Source: a virus
Taxonomy: Duplodnaviria; Caudoviricetes
DNA length: 38,671 bases
Direction: 5' to 3' (one strand)
Virus record (IMG/VR): IMGVR_UViG_3300045285_000018
Location: 1-38,671 of that record
Below, one piece after another: positions 3,781-26,309 of the stretch. The notes beneath the pieces were generated by a model, which had not been told where the DNA came from, searched no databases, and saw only the letters and a program-made list of their open reading frames with translations. The position numbers were made by a program, and so were the translations under genes. The first letter of the stretch is position 1. Each line of letters starts with the position of its first letter.

Positions 3781-5201
3781 TGCAAATCCCATTCGTCGGT
3801 GCGTCCTACCTGGAGCGCAGCACCAACCTGGATTGCCAGGTGTGCATCAACCTTTTCCCGGTCACAGGGGAATCTGGCACGGCAAAGGCCGTCAGCGCGC
3901 TGTATGGCACACCAGGCACGCGCCCGCTTACTTCGGCGGCCAACGGTGCCGTGCGCGGCGAACACGCGCCTACGGACGGGGGCGCCGGAATCGTGGTGGC
4001 CGGCACGCGCGTCTACCGGCTGAGCGAAACGTTTGTCCTTACCGACATTGGCGCTGTGGACGACTTGAACACGCCCGTGAAAATTGACGACAACGGCCTG
4101 CAGGCGGTCATTGTCACCGGCCCGAACGGCTACGTGGTCGACCTGGTGCAGAACACGGTGACGCAAATTTCCGACCCGAGTTTTTACGGCGCCGATAACG
4201 TCGACTTCCTGAACACCTACGCGATTTTCAACCGGCCCGGCACAAACCAGTTTTACATCACCGGTGGGAACGAAATCACCTTCGACGCGCTGGACTTTGC
4301 CACGGCTGAAAGTAACTTCGAACCGATCATCAATTTCATCGTGAACCATGATGAACTGGTATTTTTCAAGCAGACCGTTACCGAAATCTGGCGCGCCAGC
4401 GCCAACCCTGACTTCCCGTTCGCGCGCGATACAAACGCGTCGATCGAGCAGGGTTGCATGGCCCGCGATTCGGTCGCCTCGCTGGACAACACCATTTTCT
4501 GGCTGGGAAAGAACGCGGACGGCGCCGGCATCGTGTGGCGCCTGAACGGCTACACGCCGGTGCGGGTCAGCACCAACGCGATCGAAACCGCGATTGCCAG
4601 CTATGGCGATGCTTCCGACGCCGTGGCCTACGCCTACCAGCAAGAGGGGCATTCGTTCTACGTGATCAGCTTCCCAACCGGGAATGTCACCTGGGTGTAT
4701 GACGTGTCCACCGGGCTGTGGCACCAACGTGCCTACCTGAACCCGGTCAGCGGAAACCTGGAGCGGCACCGGTCGAACAGCCACATGTATTTTGCCAACA
4801 CGCATGTGGTGGGCGATTACGAGAACGGCAACCTGTACGCGCTGGACTTGGATTATTTCAAGGATGGCACCAGCCCGATGCCATCTATTCGCGCAACGCC
4901 CCACATTTCAACACCGGATTACCAGTGGATCACGCACGACTGCCTGCAAATCGACATGGAAACCGGTGTTGGCCTGGTGAGCGGCCAGGGCGTCGACCCG
5001 GTGGCGCTGCTGGACTGGTCAGACGATGGCGGCAAGAACTGGAGCAACCAGCACGACCGCAGCATGGGCGCCATTGGCGAGTTCGCCAACCGCGTGCGCT
5101 GGCATCAAATGGGGCGTTCGAAAGATCGCGTGTACCGATTGACGATTTCTGACCCGGTAAAACGGGCCATCTTCGGCGCCACGCTGAACCCAAGGCAATA
5201 A
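3780..5201 (+). CDS. Tail hub / packaged-DNA stabilisation protein, P22 gp10-like
   Basis: 473 aa; LYGTPG, TWVYDVSTGLWH and WSDDGGKNWS motifs typical of the family. Confidence 0.85.
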   Translation: MQIPFVGASYLERSTNLDCQVCINLFPVTGESGTAKAVSALYGTPGTRPLTSAANGAVRGEHAPTDGGAGIVVAGTRVYRLSETFVLTDIGAVDDLNTPVKIDDNGLQAVIVTGPNGYVVDLVQNTVTQISDPSFYGADNVDFLNTYAIFNRPGTNQFYITGGNEITFDALDFATAESNFEPIINFIVNHDELVFFKQTVTEIWRASANPDFPFARDTNASIEQGCMARDSVASLDNTIFWLGKNADGAGIVWRLNGYTPVRVSTNAIETAIASYGDASDAVAYAYQQEGHSFYVISFPTGNVTWVYDVSTGLWHQRAYLNPVSGNLERHRSNSHMYFANTHVVGDYENGNLYALDLDYFKDGTSPMPSIRATPHISTPDYQWITHDCLQIDMETGVGLVSGQGVDPVALLDWSDDGGKNWSNQHDRSMGAIGEFANRVRWHQMGRSKDRVYRLTISDPVKRAIFGATLNPRQ

Positions 5202-19537: not shown

Positions 19538-19962
19538 TCCAGTTCACGATACCAGGCCAGCCTGTCGCCAAGGGCCGCCCGAAGTTTTCCAACGCCGGCG
19601 GCTTCGTCAAGGCATACACGCCGGCCAAAACGCGGGCCTATGAAGCTGTGGTGGCCGCGTGCGCCATGCAGGCCATGGCAGGGCGCCCGCCGTCCGATCG
19701 GGCCATCGAAGTGCTGCTGGAACTGCGCATGGAAATCCCGGTTTCCTGGTCGAAGGCCAAACGGCTGGCAGCATCGGAAGGCAAGGTACGCGCCACGAAG
19801 AAACCCGACGCTGATAACGTGCTGAAGGGCGTCAAGGATGCCTGCAACGGCATCGTGTGGGTCGATGACAGCCAGGTGGTGGTGATCACCGTCCGCAAGC
19901 TGTACCACGCTGAACCGTGCGTTGTTATTGGCGTGCGCGAGGTCGAAGGCGATCCGGCTTAG
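19534..19962 (+). CDS. rusA: RusA-family Holliday junction resolvase
   Basis: PVAKGRP and KPDADNVLKGVKDACNGIVWVDDSQVV. Confidence 0.92.
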   Translation: MIQFTIPGQPVAKGRPKFSNAGGFVKAYTPAKTRAYEAVVAACAMQAMAGRPPSDRAIEVLLELRMEIPVSWSKAKRLAASEGKVRATKKPDADNVLKGVKDACNGIVWVDDSQVVVITVRKLYHAEPCVVIGVREVEGDPA

Positions 19963-20570
19963 GTGCCAGTCGGACGGAATGGGGCGGGATCGTTTTTGAA
20001 GATACGTGCACGCAGGGTATCGCGGCGAATCCCGAGTTCTTCCGCTACTTCGATCAGCAGGCGCCGCTGGCCGTTGTAGTCGATCCAAAGATTGTGCCGC
20101 ACGTTGCGCATGCTTTCTGATCTGGTCGACCACCGGACGTTTCCGGGTTCATAGTTGCCGTCGTTTTCGATGCGGTCGAAGTGGTAAGGCCCATCAGGTT
20201 TTGCTGGGCATTCCGCGATGAATGTTTCCGGGTTTCGCCATGCATCGCAAACGGTAATGCCGCGTTCGCCGTAGTTTTTGTATTCGTGGCTTTCTGGATT
20301 CAGGCAGCGCCGCATCATGTCTTTCCAGACCGAGTAAAGCGGAGTTTTGCTCAAGCAATGCGAACTTGACCGGGCCAGCAGACCTTCGATTTTCAGGCAC
20401 CCGCAGCTACGCGTTTTACCGTTTTTCAAGCTGGTTGCGGTCACTATCTTGACCTTGCCGCAGTCGCACAAAACTTCGCACATGCTGTGACTTTTGATGA
20501 CGCCAAGGCTTGTGACGACAGTGAGGCGGTCAAATTTCTGGCCGGGTTCGATGGTGATTGGCTTTGGCAT
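19959..20570 (-). CDS. Free-standing HNH homing-endonuclease-like protein
   Basis: CDCGK, TRSCGC, YKNYGERGITVC and DRIENDGNYEPGNVRW; antisense to its neighbours. Confidence 0.8.
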   Translation of the reverse strand: MPKPITIEPGQKFDRLTVVTSLGVIKSHSMCEVLCDCGKVKIVTATSLKNGKTRSCGCLKIEGLLARSSSHCLSKTPLYSVWKDMMRRCLNPESHEYKNYGERGITVCDAWRNPETFIAECPAKPDGPYHFDRIENDGNYEPGNVRWSTRSESMRNVRHNLWIDYNGQRRLLIEVAEELGIRRDTLRARIFKNDPAPFRPTGT

Positions 20571-20717
20571 TGGGAAACTTTCATGAAATATACAGTTCAA
20601 AGTCTAGCACAACAAAGAAGTTTTAAAAGTTCCGCGAATTTGATTGACCTATATTAATGAACTGTGCGAATATTCGTTTGTCGGTGGTGGGCACTGATGA
20701 AAAACTAAACATCCTCT

Positions 20718-20799
20718 GAGGCCGTTTAGTTCTCGACTTTCTAGCGGTTCGACCGCAACTTGCCCACCAAGGAAAGTCCGAGAACTAAGCGGCCTTTTT
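20718..20799 (+). ncRNA. C4/CI-like cloverleaf antisense RNA ending in a terminator-like U-tract
   Basis: Long stem aggccgtttagttctcg-actttc / gaaagt-c-cgagaactaagcggcct enclosing the hairpins gcggt-tcg-accgc and cttg-cccac-caag; tgcccacca (20761-20769) is complementary to 20685-20693. Confidence 0.65.
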
Positions 20800-21000
20800 G
20801 CGTTCTGCCACCGACCACTACCCGCCTGGGAATGCAAACAACAGGGGCGCGCGGTGAAGCTGTACTGGTGGTCAGGGGGGTAGCACAGCAAACCGGCGGC
20901 GAAGAAAGCACCGGTCCCCGAAAAGGCTTTCGCGTCTGAGGCTCCGTATACGGGTATCAGTAAAGGGTGTGGTCTAAGGCTGCGCCCATCCACCGAACCG
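20800..21000 (+). ncRNA. Putative second structured RNA domain
   Basis: Several stems, some rich in G-U pairs; G6 tract at 20875-20880; no credible ORF. Confidence 0.45.
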
Positions 21001-21059
21001 GGTATGAAGTAAAGCAGTGAAACTTGATGAACTTCGAAACTAAACTTTAAAGGAAATAT

Positions 21060-21716
21060 ATGAACACCATGGTGAGCCGCGAGATTGCAAAAAAGGTGCT
21101 TGAGGTTGTTGATGCCGGACTGGTTAGCGGGAAGGGAAAGCCGATCCCCGGCCAGATGTGCGTCGAAGCGGCGGTGTGCTACGCCATGGGCCTTCCCCAC
21201 AGTGATGAACCGAAGTGCGTAGGCGAAGCTGTGCGTGTCTTCAAAATCCGGTTGAATGATTCGAAGTGGCCGACCGATGCCGACCGCACGAAAGGCATGC
21301 GCAAGCTGGCGATTGCCCAGCTGGGCAGCGACACGATCGACCAAATGGCGTTTGCCAAGCATGTGGCACTTGAGTGCCAGCGCCGTGTGCTGCCGCTGGC
21401 GCTGCGCCGCGCCGCCAGCTTCAAAGGCCCATTCGCTGAACGCCTTGAGGCTGCCGCCGTTGTCTTCGAATCTGCAACCACACTTGCAGAGGCTGACAGC
21501 GCTACGCGCGCCGCGCGAGCGCTGACAAAGGAGAGTCGCGCCGACGACTACGCCGACGACTACGCCGACGCCTACGCCTACGCCAACGCCAACGCCAAGG
21601 ATTTCCTCCTACAGGTTTTGAACCTGACGGCTGAAATTGGTCTGGAAGCACTGATCGCCTGCAAGTCGCCAGGCTGCGAATGGCTGGACCTGTGCGATGA
21701 AACGGTAGAGGCGTGA
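21060..21716 (+). CDS. Hypothetical protein with Ala-(Asp/Tyr/Asn) repeats
   Basis: AAGGA RBS; MCVEAAVC...HSDEPKCV; 218 aa. Confidence 0.7.
   Translation: MNTMVSREIAKKVLEVVDAGLVSGKGKPIPGQMCVEAAVCYAMGLPHSDEPKCVGEAVRVFKIRLNDSKWPTDADRTKGMRKLAIAQLGSDTIDQMAFAKHVALECQRRVLPLALRRAASFKGPFAERLEAAAVVFESATTLAEADSATRAARALTKESRADDYADDYADAYAYANANAKDFLLQVLNLTAEIGLEALIACKSPGCEWLDLCDETVEA
21540..21599 (+). repeat. In-frame degenerate hexamer tandem repeat
   Basis: gccgac gactac gccgac gactac gccgac gcctac gcctac gccaac gccaac gccaag. Confidence 0.85.
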
Positions 21717-22228
21717 TCATGGTCGACTTCGCCAACCTGCGCGCGCTTGCGAGCATCGGCGCCGCGCCGCGCATCATGGTCGACCGGCTGGACCTGGTGG
21801 AACTGCTGGCCGAAGTCGACGCGCTGCGCGCCGCGGTGCCGGCGAAGAAGGCCAGGGCGAAGAAGCAACCGACCGAGCCAGCATTGTGCACGCTGCCGGC
21901 CTGGCTGCCGCTGGATGCCTGGAACGCCTTCCTGGAAATGCGGAAGAAAATCAAGAAACCGCCGACCAACTACGCCCAGGAATTGCTGATCAAAAAGCTG
22001 GCCGCGTTCTATGCCAACGATCTGGACCCTGGTGTGATCCTGAACCAGTCGACGCTGAACGGATGGCAAGACCTGTACGCACCGCGCGAACCAAGCACCG
22101 CGCGCGTGCAGCGCCCTGGCGCCGTGCAGGTGGCCGACCAGAACCGCGCCAACAATGCCGAAGCGCTGCGCCTGCTGGGCCAACCGATGTTCGCTGACGA
22201 CGGAATGACGATCGAGGCCACACGATGA
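21713..22228 (+). CDS. Protein resembling the C-terminal domain of phage replication initiators
   Basis: LPAWLPLDAWNAFLEMRKKIKKPPT...ILNQSTLNGWQDLY resembles, from recall, the C-terminus of lambdoid O-like proteins; no winged-HTH N-terminus. Confidence 0.6.
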   Translation: MIMVDFANLRALASIGAAPRIMVDRLDLVELLAEVDALRAAVPAKKARAKKQPTEPALCTLPAWLPLDAWNAFLEMRKKIKKPPTNYAQELLIKKLAAFYANDLDPGVILNQSTLNGWQDLYAPREPSTARVQRPGAVQVADQNRANNAEALRLLGQPMFADDGMTIEATR

Positions 22229-22890
22229 ACCAGCAGGATGCGCAGGCATTCTTCGAACTGCTGGATGCAACCTACGACGTGATCGGCGTCGGCCCTGCGA
22301 AGATCATCAGCCCAGGCGCCAAGGCGATGTTTTTCGAAGACCTGGAACGCTACCCGCTTGACCTGATCCGCGCATCGCTGGCGGCACACCGCCAAGACCC
22401 GGAGCGCGGCAAGTTCACGCCGAAGCCCGCGGATATCGTGTACCAGATCGAGCGGCGCCGGAAGGTATCCTGGCTGTCGGCAGATGAAGCATGGTCCCAG
22501 GTGCCGAAGATCGAGGGCCAGCCCGGCCTGCTGAACGACGTTACCGCCCAGGCGCTGGCCGTGGCCCAGCAGTTCCTGACGCTGCCGCGGCCCGACCTGA
22601 CCGCGGCCAGGATGGCGTTCAAGGGCTGCTACGATCGCCTGGTCGAGCGCGCCAAGCTGGAGCGGCGCGGCCCGGTGTACTTCGTGTCTCCTGGTGGCAG
22701 CTTCGATGAGCAGCAAGCCGTCGTCGACGAAGGCGTGCGCATGGGTTTGCTGCCAAGACTGGACGTCACCCCCCAGCAAATGCTTGCATCCGGCACGCGC
22801 ACGCACGGCGCCAAGCCCGACCTGAAAGCGCTGTTGCTATCCCTGAACGACAAGACCATGCCACCACCGGAGGCGCAAGACTATGATTAA
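22225..22890 (+). CDS. Putative helicase-loader-like protein (P position)
   Basis: H...PERGKFTPKPADI, SADEAW and AARMAFKGCYDRLV; coupled to the O-like gene. Confidence 0.55.
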   Translation: MNQQDAQAFFELLDATYDVIGVGPAKIISPGAKAMFFEDLERYPLDLIRASLAAHRQDPERGKFTPKPADIVYQIERRRKVSWLSADEAWSQVPKIEGQPGLLNDVTAQALAVAQQFLTLPRPDLTAARMAFKGCYDRLVERAKLERRGPVYFVSPGGSFDEQQAVVDEGVRMGLLPRLDVTPQQMLASGTRTHGAKPDLKALLLSLNDKTMPPPEAQDYD

Positions 22891-25617: not shown

Positions 25618-25764
25618 ATGTTGCAGACAGAAGACCGCGACGGCACCAAAGCCGAAATGGAACGCATTGAAAAAGAGCGCTTGAAGCAATTCAAGGATGA
25701 CAAGGAAAAACAGGAAGCTGCCGAAAAGCAGCCCGCCGCCGGAAAATCAAAGGACAAGCCATGA
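25618..25764 (+). CDS. Small highly charged protein (48 aa)
   Basis: Below the ORF-track cutoff; AGGAG RBS; MLQTEDRDGTKAEMERIEKERLKQF...; stop overlaps the next ATG. Confidence 0.6.
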   Translation: MLQTEDRDGTKAEMERIEKERLKQFKDDKEKQEAAEKQPAAGKSKDKP

Positions 25765-26309
25765 AATTTACGCATATCGCCAACCCGGTGGCCGTCACCG
25801 CTCGCACCATCCTGGGCTTGGAGTTGATCACCGAAGGCGCCATGCTGTCGCTGGATGATATCAGCAACTATTTTGCCAGCAATTCCATGCTGTCGCGCTA
25901 CACGCCTGTGCCAGGCGACTACCTGGTGACCCAGGATGACGGTTACGAATATGTGAACCCGAAAGCTGTTTTCGAACGCAAATATTCACCGATCATTGAT
26001 CTGCCAGATACGCCGCCGCAGCTGGTGCCTGGCGCGCAGATGTGCTTTTCCGGCGCCCTGCTGCACCTGAAGGGCGGCGCCTGTATCGCGCGCAAGGGAT
26101 GGAACGGCCAAAACATGTTCGTGTACATGGTGCCAGCGAACAGCTACCTGGCGCAGACTGATGCGGCCAAGGCCAGGTTTGGTGTCGGCGCTATGGTGCC
26201 GTACAACGCCTACCTGGCCCTGGTCGGTGTCGACGGCAGCGTCAGCACCTGGGCGCCGAGCGTGGGCGACACGCTGGCCGAAGACTGGATGATCGTCCAG
26301 CCTCTGTAA
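25761..26309 (+). CDS. DUF2829 / Tad2-like anti-Thoeris sponge fused to an extra N-terminal domain
   Basis: FSGALLHLKGG..IARKGWNGQNMF...WAPSVGDTLAEDW is the DUF2829 pattern; N-domain GDYLVTQDDGYEYVNPKAVFERKY. Confidence 0.8.
   Translation: MKFTHIANPVAVTARTILGLELITEGAMLSLDDISNYFASNSMLSRYTPVPGDYLVTQDDGYEYVNPKAVFERKYSPIIDLPDTPPQLVPGAQMCFSGALLHLKGGACIARKGWNGQNMFVYMVPANSYLAQTDAAKARFGVGAMVPYNAYLALVGVDGSVSTWAPSVGDTLAEDWMIVQPL

What the first reader, a model, noticed from the sequence alone, without database searches (positions are those of the whole stretch)
20800..22890. Candidate RNA-dependent replication module: structured non-coding region + initiator lacking its DNA-binding domain + loader
Seen: a lambdoid phage would have O (origin-binding winged HTH plus iterons) and P here. 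Instead the 171-aa 21713 protein has a short N-terminus and a segment resembling the O-type C-terminal domain, coupled to a P-like gene. I see no iteron array and no helicase, primase or polymerase. The operon is preceded by ~460 bp of densely structured non-coding sequence with a G6 tract. Established: ColE1 initiates from a folded RNA II whose G-run helps form an R-loop, controlled by an antisense RNA. Inference: the RNA (or its DNA) could replace the missing origin-binding domain by opening or priming the origin, with the short protein recruiting host helicase.
Basis: partly seen in the sequence, partly recalled or inferred. Interest (0 to 1): 0.85.

Follow-up and report, generated by a model that had tools for sequence, protein, structure and literature searches.

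The report
Knotted RNA replaces phage origin-binding domain
This phage's replication-starter protein lacks its usual DNA-binding half, and just upstream lies a conserved non-coding element with a predicted knotted fold and two short repeats that change in step across relatives, which likely makes an RNA that grips its own DNA to open the replication origin, working like the ColE1 plasmid primer without detectable kinship to it.

Summary
21713 keeps only the C-terminal domain of an O-type initiator, 22225 resembles helicase loaders, and 20601-21059 is non-coding and folds better than shuffles. The region has two parts: a P4-CI/IsrK-like leader (20680-20815) and Rfam RF02932 Betaproteobacteria-1 (20818-20935), which extends to about 21005. 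The element has three covarying pseudoknots. A 5-9 nt loop segment is repeated at its 3' end, and the two copies covary in 47 phage and 30 independent bacterial-genome examples. Of 79 viral motif loci, 57 have a co-oriented replication gene nearby, and none has a recognised full-length initiator; two Glomeribacter loci are exceptions. Corrections: the G6 run is a pseudoknot arm, not a conserved G-run; no homology to ColE1 RNA II was detectable; lack of iterons is not diagnostic. The closest relatives put a different structured element in the same slot. Best reading (0.6): a transcribed origin RNA whose loop pairs with template DNA and nucleates an R-loop, onto which the headless initiator and loader put host DnaB. 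Function is untested. This scan reached the same reading on four other genomes.

The parts
20644..20673 (+). Likely promoter (-35 at 20644, -10-like hexamer at 20668) driving the leader, the element and the replication operon
   Evidence: Similar hexamers at the same place in L001 and L002. The consensus scanner did not call it. Inferred.
20680..20815 (+). Leader resembling P4 CI/IsrK: 5' element a (20680-20693), long branched hairpin 20718-20795 followed by a T5 run, loop element b (20761-20769, complementary to a), element a' (20806-20815, complementary to a)
   Evidence: 17-nt inverted repeat; folds; a/a' pairing covaries in a subset, 10 of 30 with 9 or more pairs; nearly the same leader precedes a different element in L209.
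20818..21005 (+). Extended Betaproteobacteria-1 element (Rfam RF02932 covers 20818-20935): five stems and three pseudoknots; candidate origin RNA
   Evidence: 61.2 bits against gathering score 49.4; conservation continues about 70 nt beyond the Rfam model; covariation.
20875..20880 (+). G6 run; 20875-20878 pairs with the C4 at 20916-20919 as a pseudoknot arm
   Evidence: All 4 pairs of this helix show changes on both sides; 80% of cells paired in 47 sequences and 73% in 30 others; coordinates.
20951..20957 (+). Loop copy of the covarying direct repeat (proposed guide)
   Evidence: The same 7-mer stands at 20951 and 20999; family tests.
20999..21005 (+). 3' copy of the direct repeat (proposed DNA target, paired on the template strand), followed by A/T-rich DNA
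   Evidence: the +10..+50 stretch is more A/T-rich than its locus in 44 of 46.
21060..21716 (+). 218-aa mostly helical protein of a large unnamed family (1350 hits); probably an exchangeable passenger
   Evidence: No Pfam or PHROG family; model pLDDT 92.9 with only generic helical-bundle matches, best Z 6.4; other genes fill this slot in L001, L002, L017, L020.
21713..22228 (+). Initiator with only the O-type C-terminal helical domain (about residues 57-122), a short two-helix N-terminus and no winged helix
   Evidence: Atlas structure neighbours are the C-terminal parts of HTH_36, DUF1376, Phage_rep_O and Phage_rep_org_N proteins; 38% identity to the C-terminal half of a full-length HTH_36 initiator.
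22225..22890 (+). Likely helicase loader (DUF6475 / G39P_N / lambda P-like)
   Evidence: scores 0.93-0.96, leads; PHROG families of unknown function that its counterparts in L001, L013 and L017 also hit.

Best explanation
The element at 20818-21005 is likely the phage's replication origin acting through an RNA: the nascent transcript is predicted to fold into a three-pseudoknot scaffold whose loop segment (20951-20957) would pair with the template strand of the identical copy at 20999-21005, nucleating an R-loop. That R-loop would displace the A/T-rich non-template strand downstream. The headless initiator 21713 and the loader 22225 would then put host DnaB on this single strand, so RNA-DNA pairing would supply the sequence specificity that the missing winged helix normally gives. 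The RNA 3' end may also serve as primer. The upstream leader would gate how much transcription reaches the element. Shown here: the conserved covarying fold, the covarying repeat, the placement beside co-oriented replication genes, and the headless initiator. Inferred: transcription, R-loop formation, helicase loading, priming, and control by the leader.
For: Fold: 89.3% of cells paired, covariation 0.552 against 0.153, 0 of 500 shuffles, slid controls 32-43%; repeated on 30 independent sequences, 91.4%. Direct repeat: own loop versus own 3' copy share 5.9 nt on average against 3.3 for other loci and 3.9 for the nearest relative; 39 of 47 share 5 nt or more; 0 of 20000 permutations. Independent set: 5.63 against 3.09, 24 of 30. 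The repeat's complement is not enriched upstream, inside or downstream, so no in-cis RNA partner is seen. Context: of 79 viral motif loci, 31 have a CTD-only initiator, 20 an SF2 helicase and/or toprim primase, 6 a primase-helicase, 22 nothing recognised, 0 a match to 40 initiator N-termini. All 75 such hits are on the motif's strand. The element lies before CTD genes but directly after most toprim genes, which fits an origin better than a 5' regulator. G-U outnumbers A-C 69 to 17 at paired columns, pointing to the transcribed strand. A second, unrelated element fills the same slot and shows the same three gene contexts: 25, 9 and 7 of 71, none full-length. Precedent: rG:dC pairing between RNA II and the template nucleates the ColE1 hybrid, and the displaced strand can load helicase/primase (PMC4412123, PMC5043065, passages).
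Against: No experiment and no RNA data. Two Ca. Glomeribacter loci have the motif next to full-length initiators (L309 with HTH_36; L289, 304 aa with Phg_2220_C). 18 of 31 bacterial-genome hits showed no replication gene within 3 kb (by eye plus a partial Pfam scan). Short initiators L004, L013, L213, L214 and L217 showed neither element in the 1.6-3 kb upstream, so a headless initiator does not always have a detected RNA nearby. The repeat is only 5-9 nt. The long-initiator controls are often fragments and not matched for host. Loci are related, so counts are not independent events. BLAST with three motif copies found no small Rep-less plasmid. The DnaD-like fold match for the CTD is weak (Z 4.3).
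Confidence: 0.6

Rival explanations
1. The element is an origin but folds as single-stranded DNA, serving as a primase or primosome assembly site; the repeats are protein contacts or a DNA-DNA pairing.
For: Same link to replication genes, including toprim primases whose stop codon abuts the element. Covariation cannot tell RNA from ssDNA.
Against: Fixed orientation with transcription (75 of 75), a promoter-like site and leader upstream, G-U excess. Identity rather than complementarity of the repeat is simplest with a transcript pairing to its template.
Confidence: 0.13
2. The RNA regulates transcription of the replication/late operon (antiterminator, pause or switch acting on RNA polymerase), with the loop invading the transcription bubble, and the origin lies elsewhere.
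For: It follows a terminator-like U-tract in 30 of 45 loci against 0.29 of control windows, and heads the operon in the window.
Against: It lies after the replication genes in most helicase-primase phages and before them in CTD phages. It is absent from phages with long initiators, which have similar operons.
Confidence: 0.13
3. A protein supplies origin binding (the 21060 product, the short N-terminus of 21713, or a host factor), and the two repeat copies are its binding sites, the RNA having another role.
For: 21060 is well folded and of unknown function. The N-terminal 45 residues of 21713 are conserved within its subfamily.
Against: 21060 is missing from this slot in relatives. Many motif-linked initiators start at the CTD itself (residues 1-16). 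The repeat takes 44 different sequences in 47 loci.
Confidence: 0.07
4. It is a trans-acting small RNA or ribozyme, as Rfam's 'sRNA' type suggests, placed near replication genes only for co-expression.
For: Compact multi-pseudoknot core with invariant unpaired bases; copies at chromosomal sites without replication genes.
Against: Does not explain the covarying identical copy at the 3' boundary or the near-exclusion from phages with full-length initiators.
Confidence: 0.07

Closest known systems
Rfam RF02932 Betaproteobacteria-1 RNA (typed as sRNA; attribution to Weinberg et al. 2017, PMC5737381, is recalled: the main text does not name it and the supplement could not be read)
   Same: The window scores 61.2 bits over all 120 model positions, above the gathering score.
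   Different: The conserved element is about 190 nt. Two more stems, three pseudoknots and the covarying repeat are not in the Rfam model. No origin role turned up in my searches.
ColE1 RNA II primer with RNA I
   Same: Proposed working principle: a folded nascent RNA with a segment that pairs with the template strand downstream and starts a persistent hybrid (PMC4412123, PMC5043065, passages).
   Different: No detectable sequence or model similarity. About 190 nt against 550. The pairing segment varies in sequence rather than being a G-run. A phage initiator fragment and loader are encoded. No antisense RNA I was found.
RNA-based prophage origins of cluster A mycobacteriophages (PMC7157519, passages) and MRB plasmids (PMC3035462, passages)
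   Same: Non-coding RNA needed for initiation; shows that RNA origins exist in phages and arose more than once.
   Different: Those replicons lack a Rep protein; here half an initiator plus a loader are kept. Sequences were not compared.
Lambdoid O/P and SPP1 G38P/G39P-type modules (roles recalled)
   Same: Initiator C-terminal domain followed by an overlapping loader gene, no own helicase.
   Different: No N-terminal winged helix; origin specificity is proposed to come from RNA.
P4 CI RNA / Gifsy-1 IsrK leader (PMC4825925, one passage)
   Same: Leader with a terminator-like hairpin and mutually complementary elements at the head of an operon.
   Different: No Rfam match at 20680-20815. Here elements b and a' both pair with a. 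Antisense targeting of the motif was not general.

Membership tests
RF02932 Betaproteobacteria-1 | Score at or above the gathering score over the full model | tested here: met
   61.2 against 49.4 bits, positions 1-120
ColE1-type replicon | Homology to RNA II | tested here: not met
   Motif HMM and CM give no score above background on the ColE1 record; RF02932 not listed at E<=10 on its origin. One ColE1 record only; very remote kinship with large insertions is not excluded.
ColE1-type replicon | Fully complementary antisense RNA I | tested here: inconclusive
   No RNAI match and no consensus promoter on either strand; no RNA data.
ColE1-type replicon | RNA segment identical to a downstream non-template stretch, pairing with the template | tested here: met
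   Met at the level of sequence, as a covarying direct repeat, not as a G-run; the pairing itself is not shown.
ColE1-type replicon | No replicon-encoded initiator; RNase H and Pol I priming | tested here: not met
   An initiator CTD and loader-like gene are encoded; priming could not be tested.
Lambdoid O-type initiator | C-terminal helicase/loader-recruiting domain | tested here: met
   phrog_678 positions 202-296
Lambdoid O-type initiator | N-terminal winged-helix origin-binding domain | tested here: not met
   Only about 55 residues precede the CTD, no family hit, two helices in the model
Lambdoid O-type initiator | Iteron array in or beside the gene | tested here: inconclusive
   None found, but the test also found none in 9 of 11 full-length genes
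DnaD/DnaB C-terminal fold | Structural match of the CTD | tested here: inconclusive
   2i5u Z 4.3, rmsd 2.3, 54 aligned, tied with unrelated helical proteins
P4 CI / IsrK-type leader | Processed small RNA that acts in trans on flanking complementary sites | not testable with these tools
   Only the complementary elements and hairpin are seen

The most novel reading that the evidence does not exclude
A widespread class of phages has replaced the DNA-binding half of its initiator with a compact RNA that recognises the origin through a freely variable 5-9 nt guide: a natural RNA-guided origin opener. At least two unrelated RNA folds fill this slot interchangeably and serve three different replication machines (headless O plus loader, SF2 helicase plus toprim primase, primase-helicase).
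Probability: 0.5. Interest if true: 0.9.

Novelty: new variant of a known kind. Interest (0 to 1): 0.78.

Why it matters
If true, it gives a function to an orphan Rfam family and explains how many phages replicate with an initiator that has no origin-binding domain. The trigger for persistent hybrid formation in ColE1 is still called speculative (PMC5043065, passage). A 190-nt element with natural compensatory variants of the RNA-template contact would make that step directly testable, and could give small orthogonal replicons for Betaproteobacteria.

Tried and rejected
1. Homology to ColE1 RNA II: suspected by eye, not supported; the second element also scored near background (25 of 344 scored shuffles as high). 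2. G6 as R-loop driver: rejected, it is a pseudoknot arm. 3. The leader RNA as a general antisense against the motif's second loop: no enrichment, 15768 of 20000 permutations as high. 4. The repeat as a switch pairing with an in-cis complement: no enrichment. 5. The 12-nt array in 21060 as iterons: it is a codon repeat and the gene is absent from this slot in relatives; its copy number is not bridged by the laid contig. 6. 21060 as origin binder: no HTH-type match listed, which does not exclude DNA binding. 7. Foldseek of 21713 against PDB: nothing at E<=0.001. 8. BLAST of the region or motif copies against plasmids and GenBank phages: only chance-level hits, plus one 49-nt piece in a 1.5-Mb Burkholderia replicon. 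9. Sequencing runs: no RNA holder listed, no evidence either way. 10. GC skew: no clear reading. 11. MAFFT/RNAalifold consensus found only 10 pairs because stems were misaligned; helices were then chosen from the alignment by inspection and a pair scan, so leans towards the structure. One search uses new sequences, but aligned with a model holding the nested stems (not the pseudoknots).

Full report
Setting. The window is a complete 38,671-base virus record with direct terminal repeats, a P22-like podophage by portal and coat families. The finding lies between rusA, a divergent HNH gene (19959-20600, minus strand) and two DNA methyltransferase genes.

The proteins. 21713 matches only the C-terminal third of an O-like initiator profile. 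Its 81 homologs fall into a large short group and a group of 227-278 aa proteins with known N-terminal domains. In the alignment of 58 short members, the same N-terminus and tail flank two different C-terminal domain types. The model has two short N-terminal helices, a three-helix domain and no winged helix (mean pLDDT 73). Atlas structure neighbours align with the C-terminal part of HTH_36, DUF1376, Phage_rep_O and Phage_rep_org_N proteins (TM 0.40-0.48); the match to solved DnaD domains is inconclusive. 22225 is closest to DUF6475, G39P_N and lambda-P clusters. No helicase, primase or polymerase family was hit among the ORFs scanned (not all 286 ORFs). The intervening 21060 protein belongs to a family of 1350 hits, is mostly helical with no specific structural match, and is replaced by other genes in relatives.

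The non-coding region. It folds better than all 100 shuffles and has two modules. The first, 20680-20815, is a long hairpin with a T run, flanked by element a and its two complements b and a'. A U-tract precedes the motif in 30 of 45 loci, and a/a' pairing is mildly enriched (8.0 against 7.1; 4 of 20000 permutations; strong in 10 of 30). It resembles the P4 CI/IsrK leader (PMC4825925, one passage). The second is Rfam RF02932 at 20818-20935.

The extended motif. Conservation runs about 70 nt past the Rfam model. On 47 sequences (43 of the 44 distinct full-length viral copies, plus the window, L017, L164 and L165), 24 named pairs, including three pseudoknots, are 89% paired with 250 two-sided changes. 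On 30 distinct copies from bacterial genomes the result holds. The G6 run is one pseudoknot arm, and most relatives have other letters there.

The repeat. A loop segment recurs at the 3' boundary, 7 nt identical in the window (20951 and 20999). Across the family each loop matches its own 3' copy far better than other loci's, including the nearest relative's, and this repeats in the independent set. No complement is enriched in cis. Identity between an RNA loop and downstream non-template DNA is what pairing with the template strand predicts. It is the logic of the rG:dC contact in ColE1 (PMC4412123, passages). ColE1 itself gave no score above background with the HMM or the covariance model, so this is a working resemblance, not membership.

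Gene context. Of 80 viral loci 79 were confirmed: 31 have a CTD-only initiator (4 of these are weak 23-residue matches in 76-aa ORFs), 20 an SF2 helicase and/or toprim primase, 6 a primase-helicase, 22 nothing recognised (several truncated), and none matched 40 initiator N-termini. All these genes are on the motif's strand. These loci include close relatives. Conversely, the model found nothing in 30 records with long initiators and matched 2 of 6 with short ones (16 of the 36 at least 90% complete; hosts not matched). It also found nothing in 80 metagenome loci. The script classed those as 62 long, 8 short and 10 cut; L211 and L212 are short-family members classed long by mistake, and many loci have little upstream DNA. 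In bacterial genomes 31 of 80 pattern hits were real, mostly Betaproteobacteria by record title: 10 follow helicase/toprim genes, one precedes a short protein and DnaB, 18 showed no replication gene within 3 kb, and two, both Ca. Glomeribacter, precede full-length initiators. These two are counterexamples to strict exclusion.

A second element in the same slot. The closest relatives of 21713 (L001, L002, L209, L212; 59-69% identical) lack RF02932. They carry a different conserved element, in L209 behind a leader nearly identical to the window's, with the switch point just after a'. Its 71 viral loci show the same contexts (25 CTD, 9 helicase/toprim, 7 primase-helicase, 30 none, 0 full-length) and never the first motif. 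Five of the short-initiator loci examined (L004, L013, L213, L214, L217) showed neither element nearby, and L262 only a weak match to the second.

Mechanism. The simplest account is an origin RNA that pairs in cis with its template, opens the A/T-rich DNA downstream (44 of 46; intergenic DNA is often A/T-rich anyway), and hands the displaced strand to the initiator fragment and loader. Every functional step is inferred. Rivals are an ssDNA origin, a transcription regulator, a protein-bound repeat and a trans RNA.

Literature. Searches for the family name and accession and for combinations of phage, origin, non-coding RNA, R-loop, loader, pseudoknot and RNA-guided terms found no paper on this motif as an origin; the library omits most subscription papers. 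RNA-based origins are known from ColE1 (PMC5043065, passages), MRB plasmids (PMC3035462, passages) and mycobacterial prophages (PMC7157519, passages). PMC12753305 (abstract only) is protein-dependent and not relevant. The main text of PMC5737381 (passages) does not name the motif; its supplement could not be read and may list gene associations. Four unreviewed notes of this scan reached the same reading on other genomes; I saw them after and do not count them as support.

Verdict. A real, conserved module. It is a member of RF02932 in extended form and not a ColE1 replicon, and it probably works like one, with a variable guide and a retained half-initiator. New variant of a known kind; interest 0.78.

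Noticed in passing
L001:2458-2707, L002:200-470, L209:1220-1485, L212:1988-2236; 71 loci L369-L439: A second structured element with no Rfam match in L001/L002 fills the same slot.
   Followed up: partly
L013:736-1120: Short initiator locus with a third kind of leader-plus-G-tract intergenic region, matching neither element clearly.
   Followed up: partly
L298, L362, L294, L326, L314, L365, L353, L368 and others: Complete motif copies with intact repeats at chromosomal sites of Betaproteobacteria with no replication gene within 3 kb; possible remnants, satellites or stand-alone origins.
   Followed up: partly
L133:5055-6020: Initiator C-terminal domain fused in front of the loader in one 321-aa protein, downstream of the motif.
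   Followed up: partly
window 25761-26309: Protein with a Tad2-like (Thoeris anti-defence 2) domain, E 9e-19.
   Followed up: no
window 21539-21602: 12-nt tandem codon repeat in the 21060 gene; the laid source contig starts and ends here, so copy number is not independently bridged.
   Followed up: partly
window 19959-20600 (minus): HNH endonuclease gene inserted divergently right before the promoter; absent from L001, where rusA adjoins the leader.
   Followed up: no
L006:2523-2601 and 5044-5111: Two Rfam int-alpA matches, the first at the start of a full-length initiator gene.
   Followed up: no
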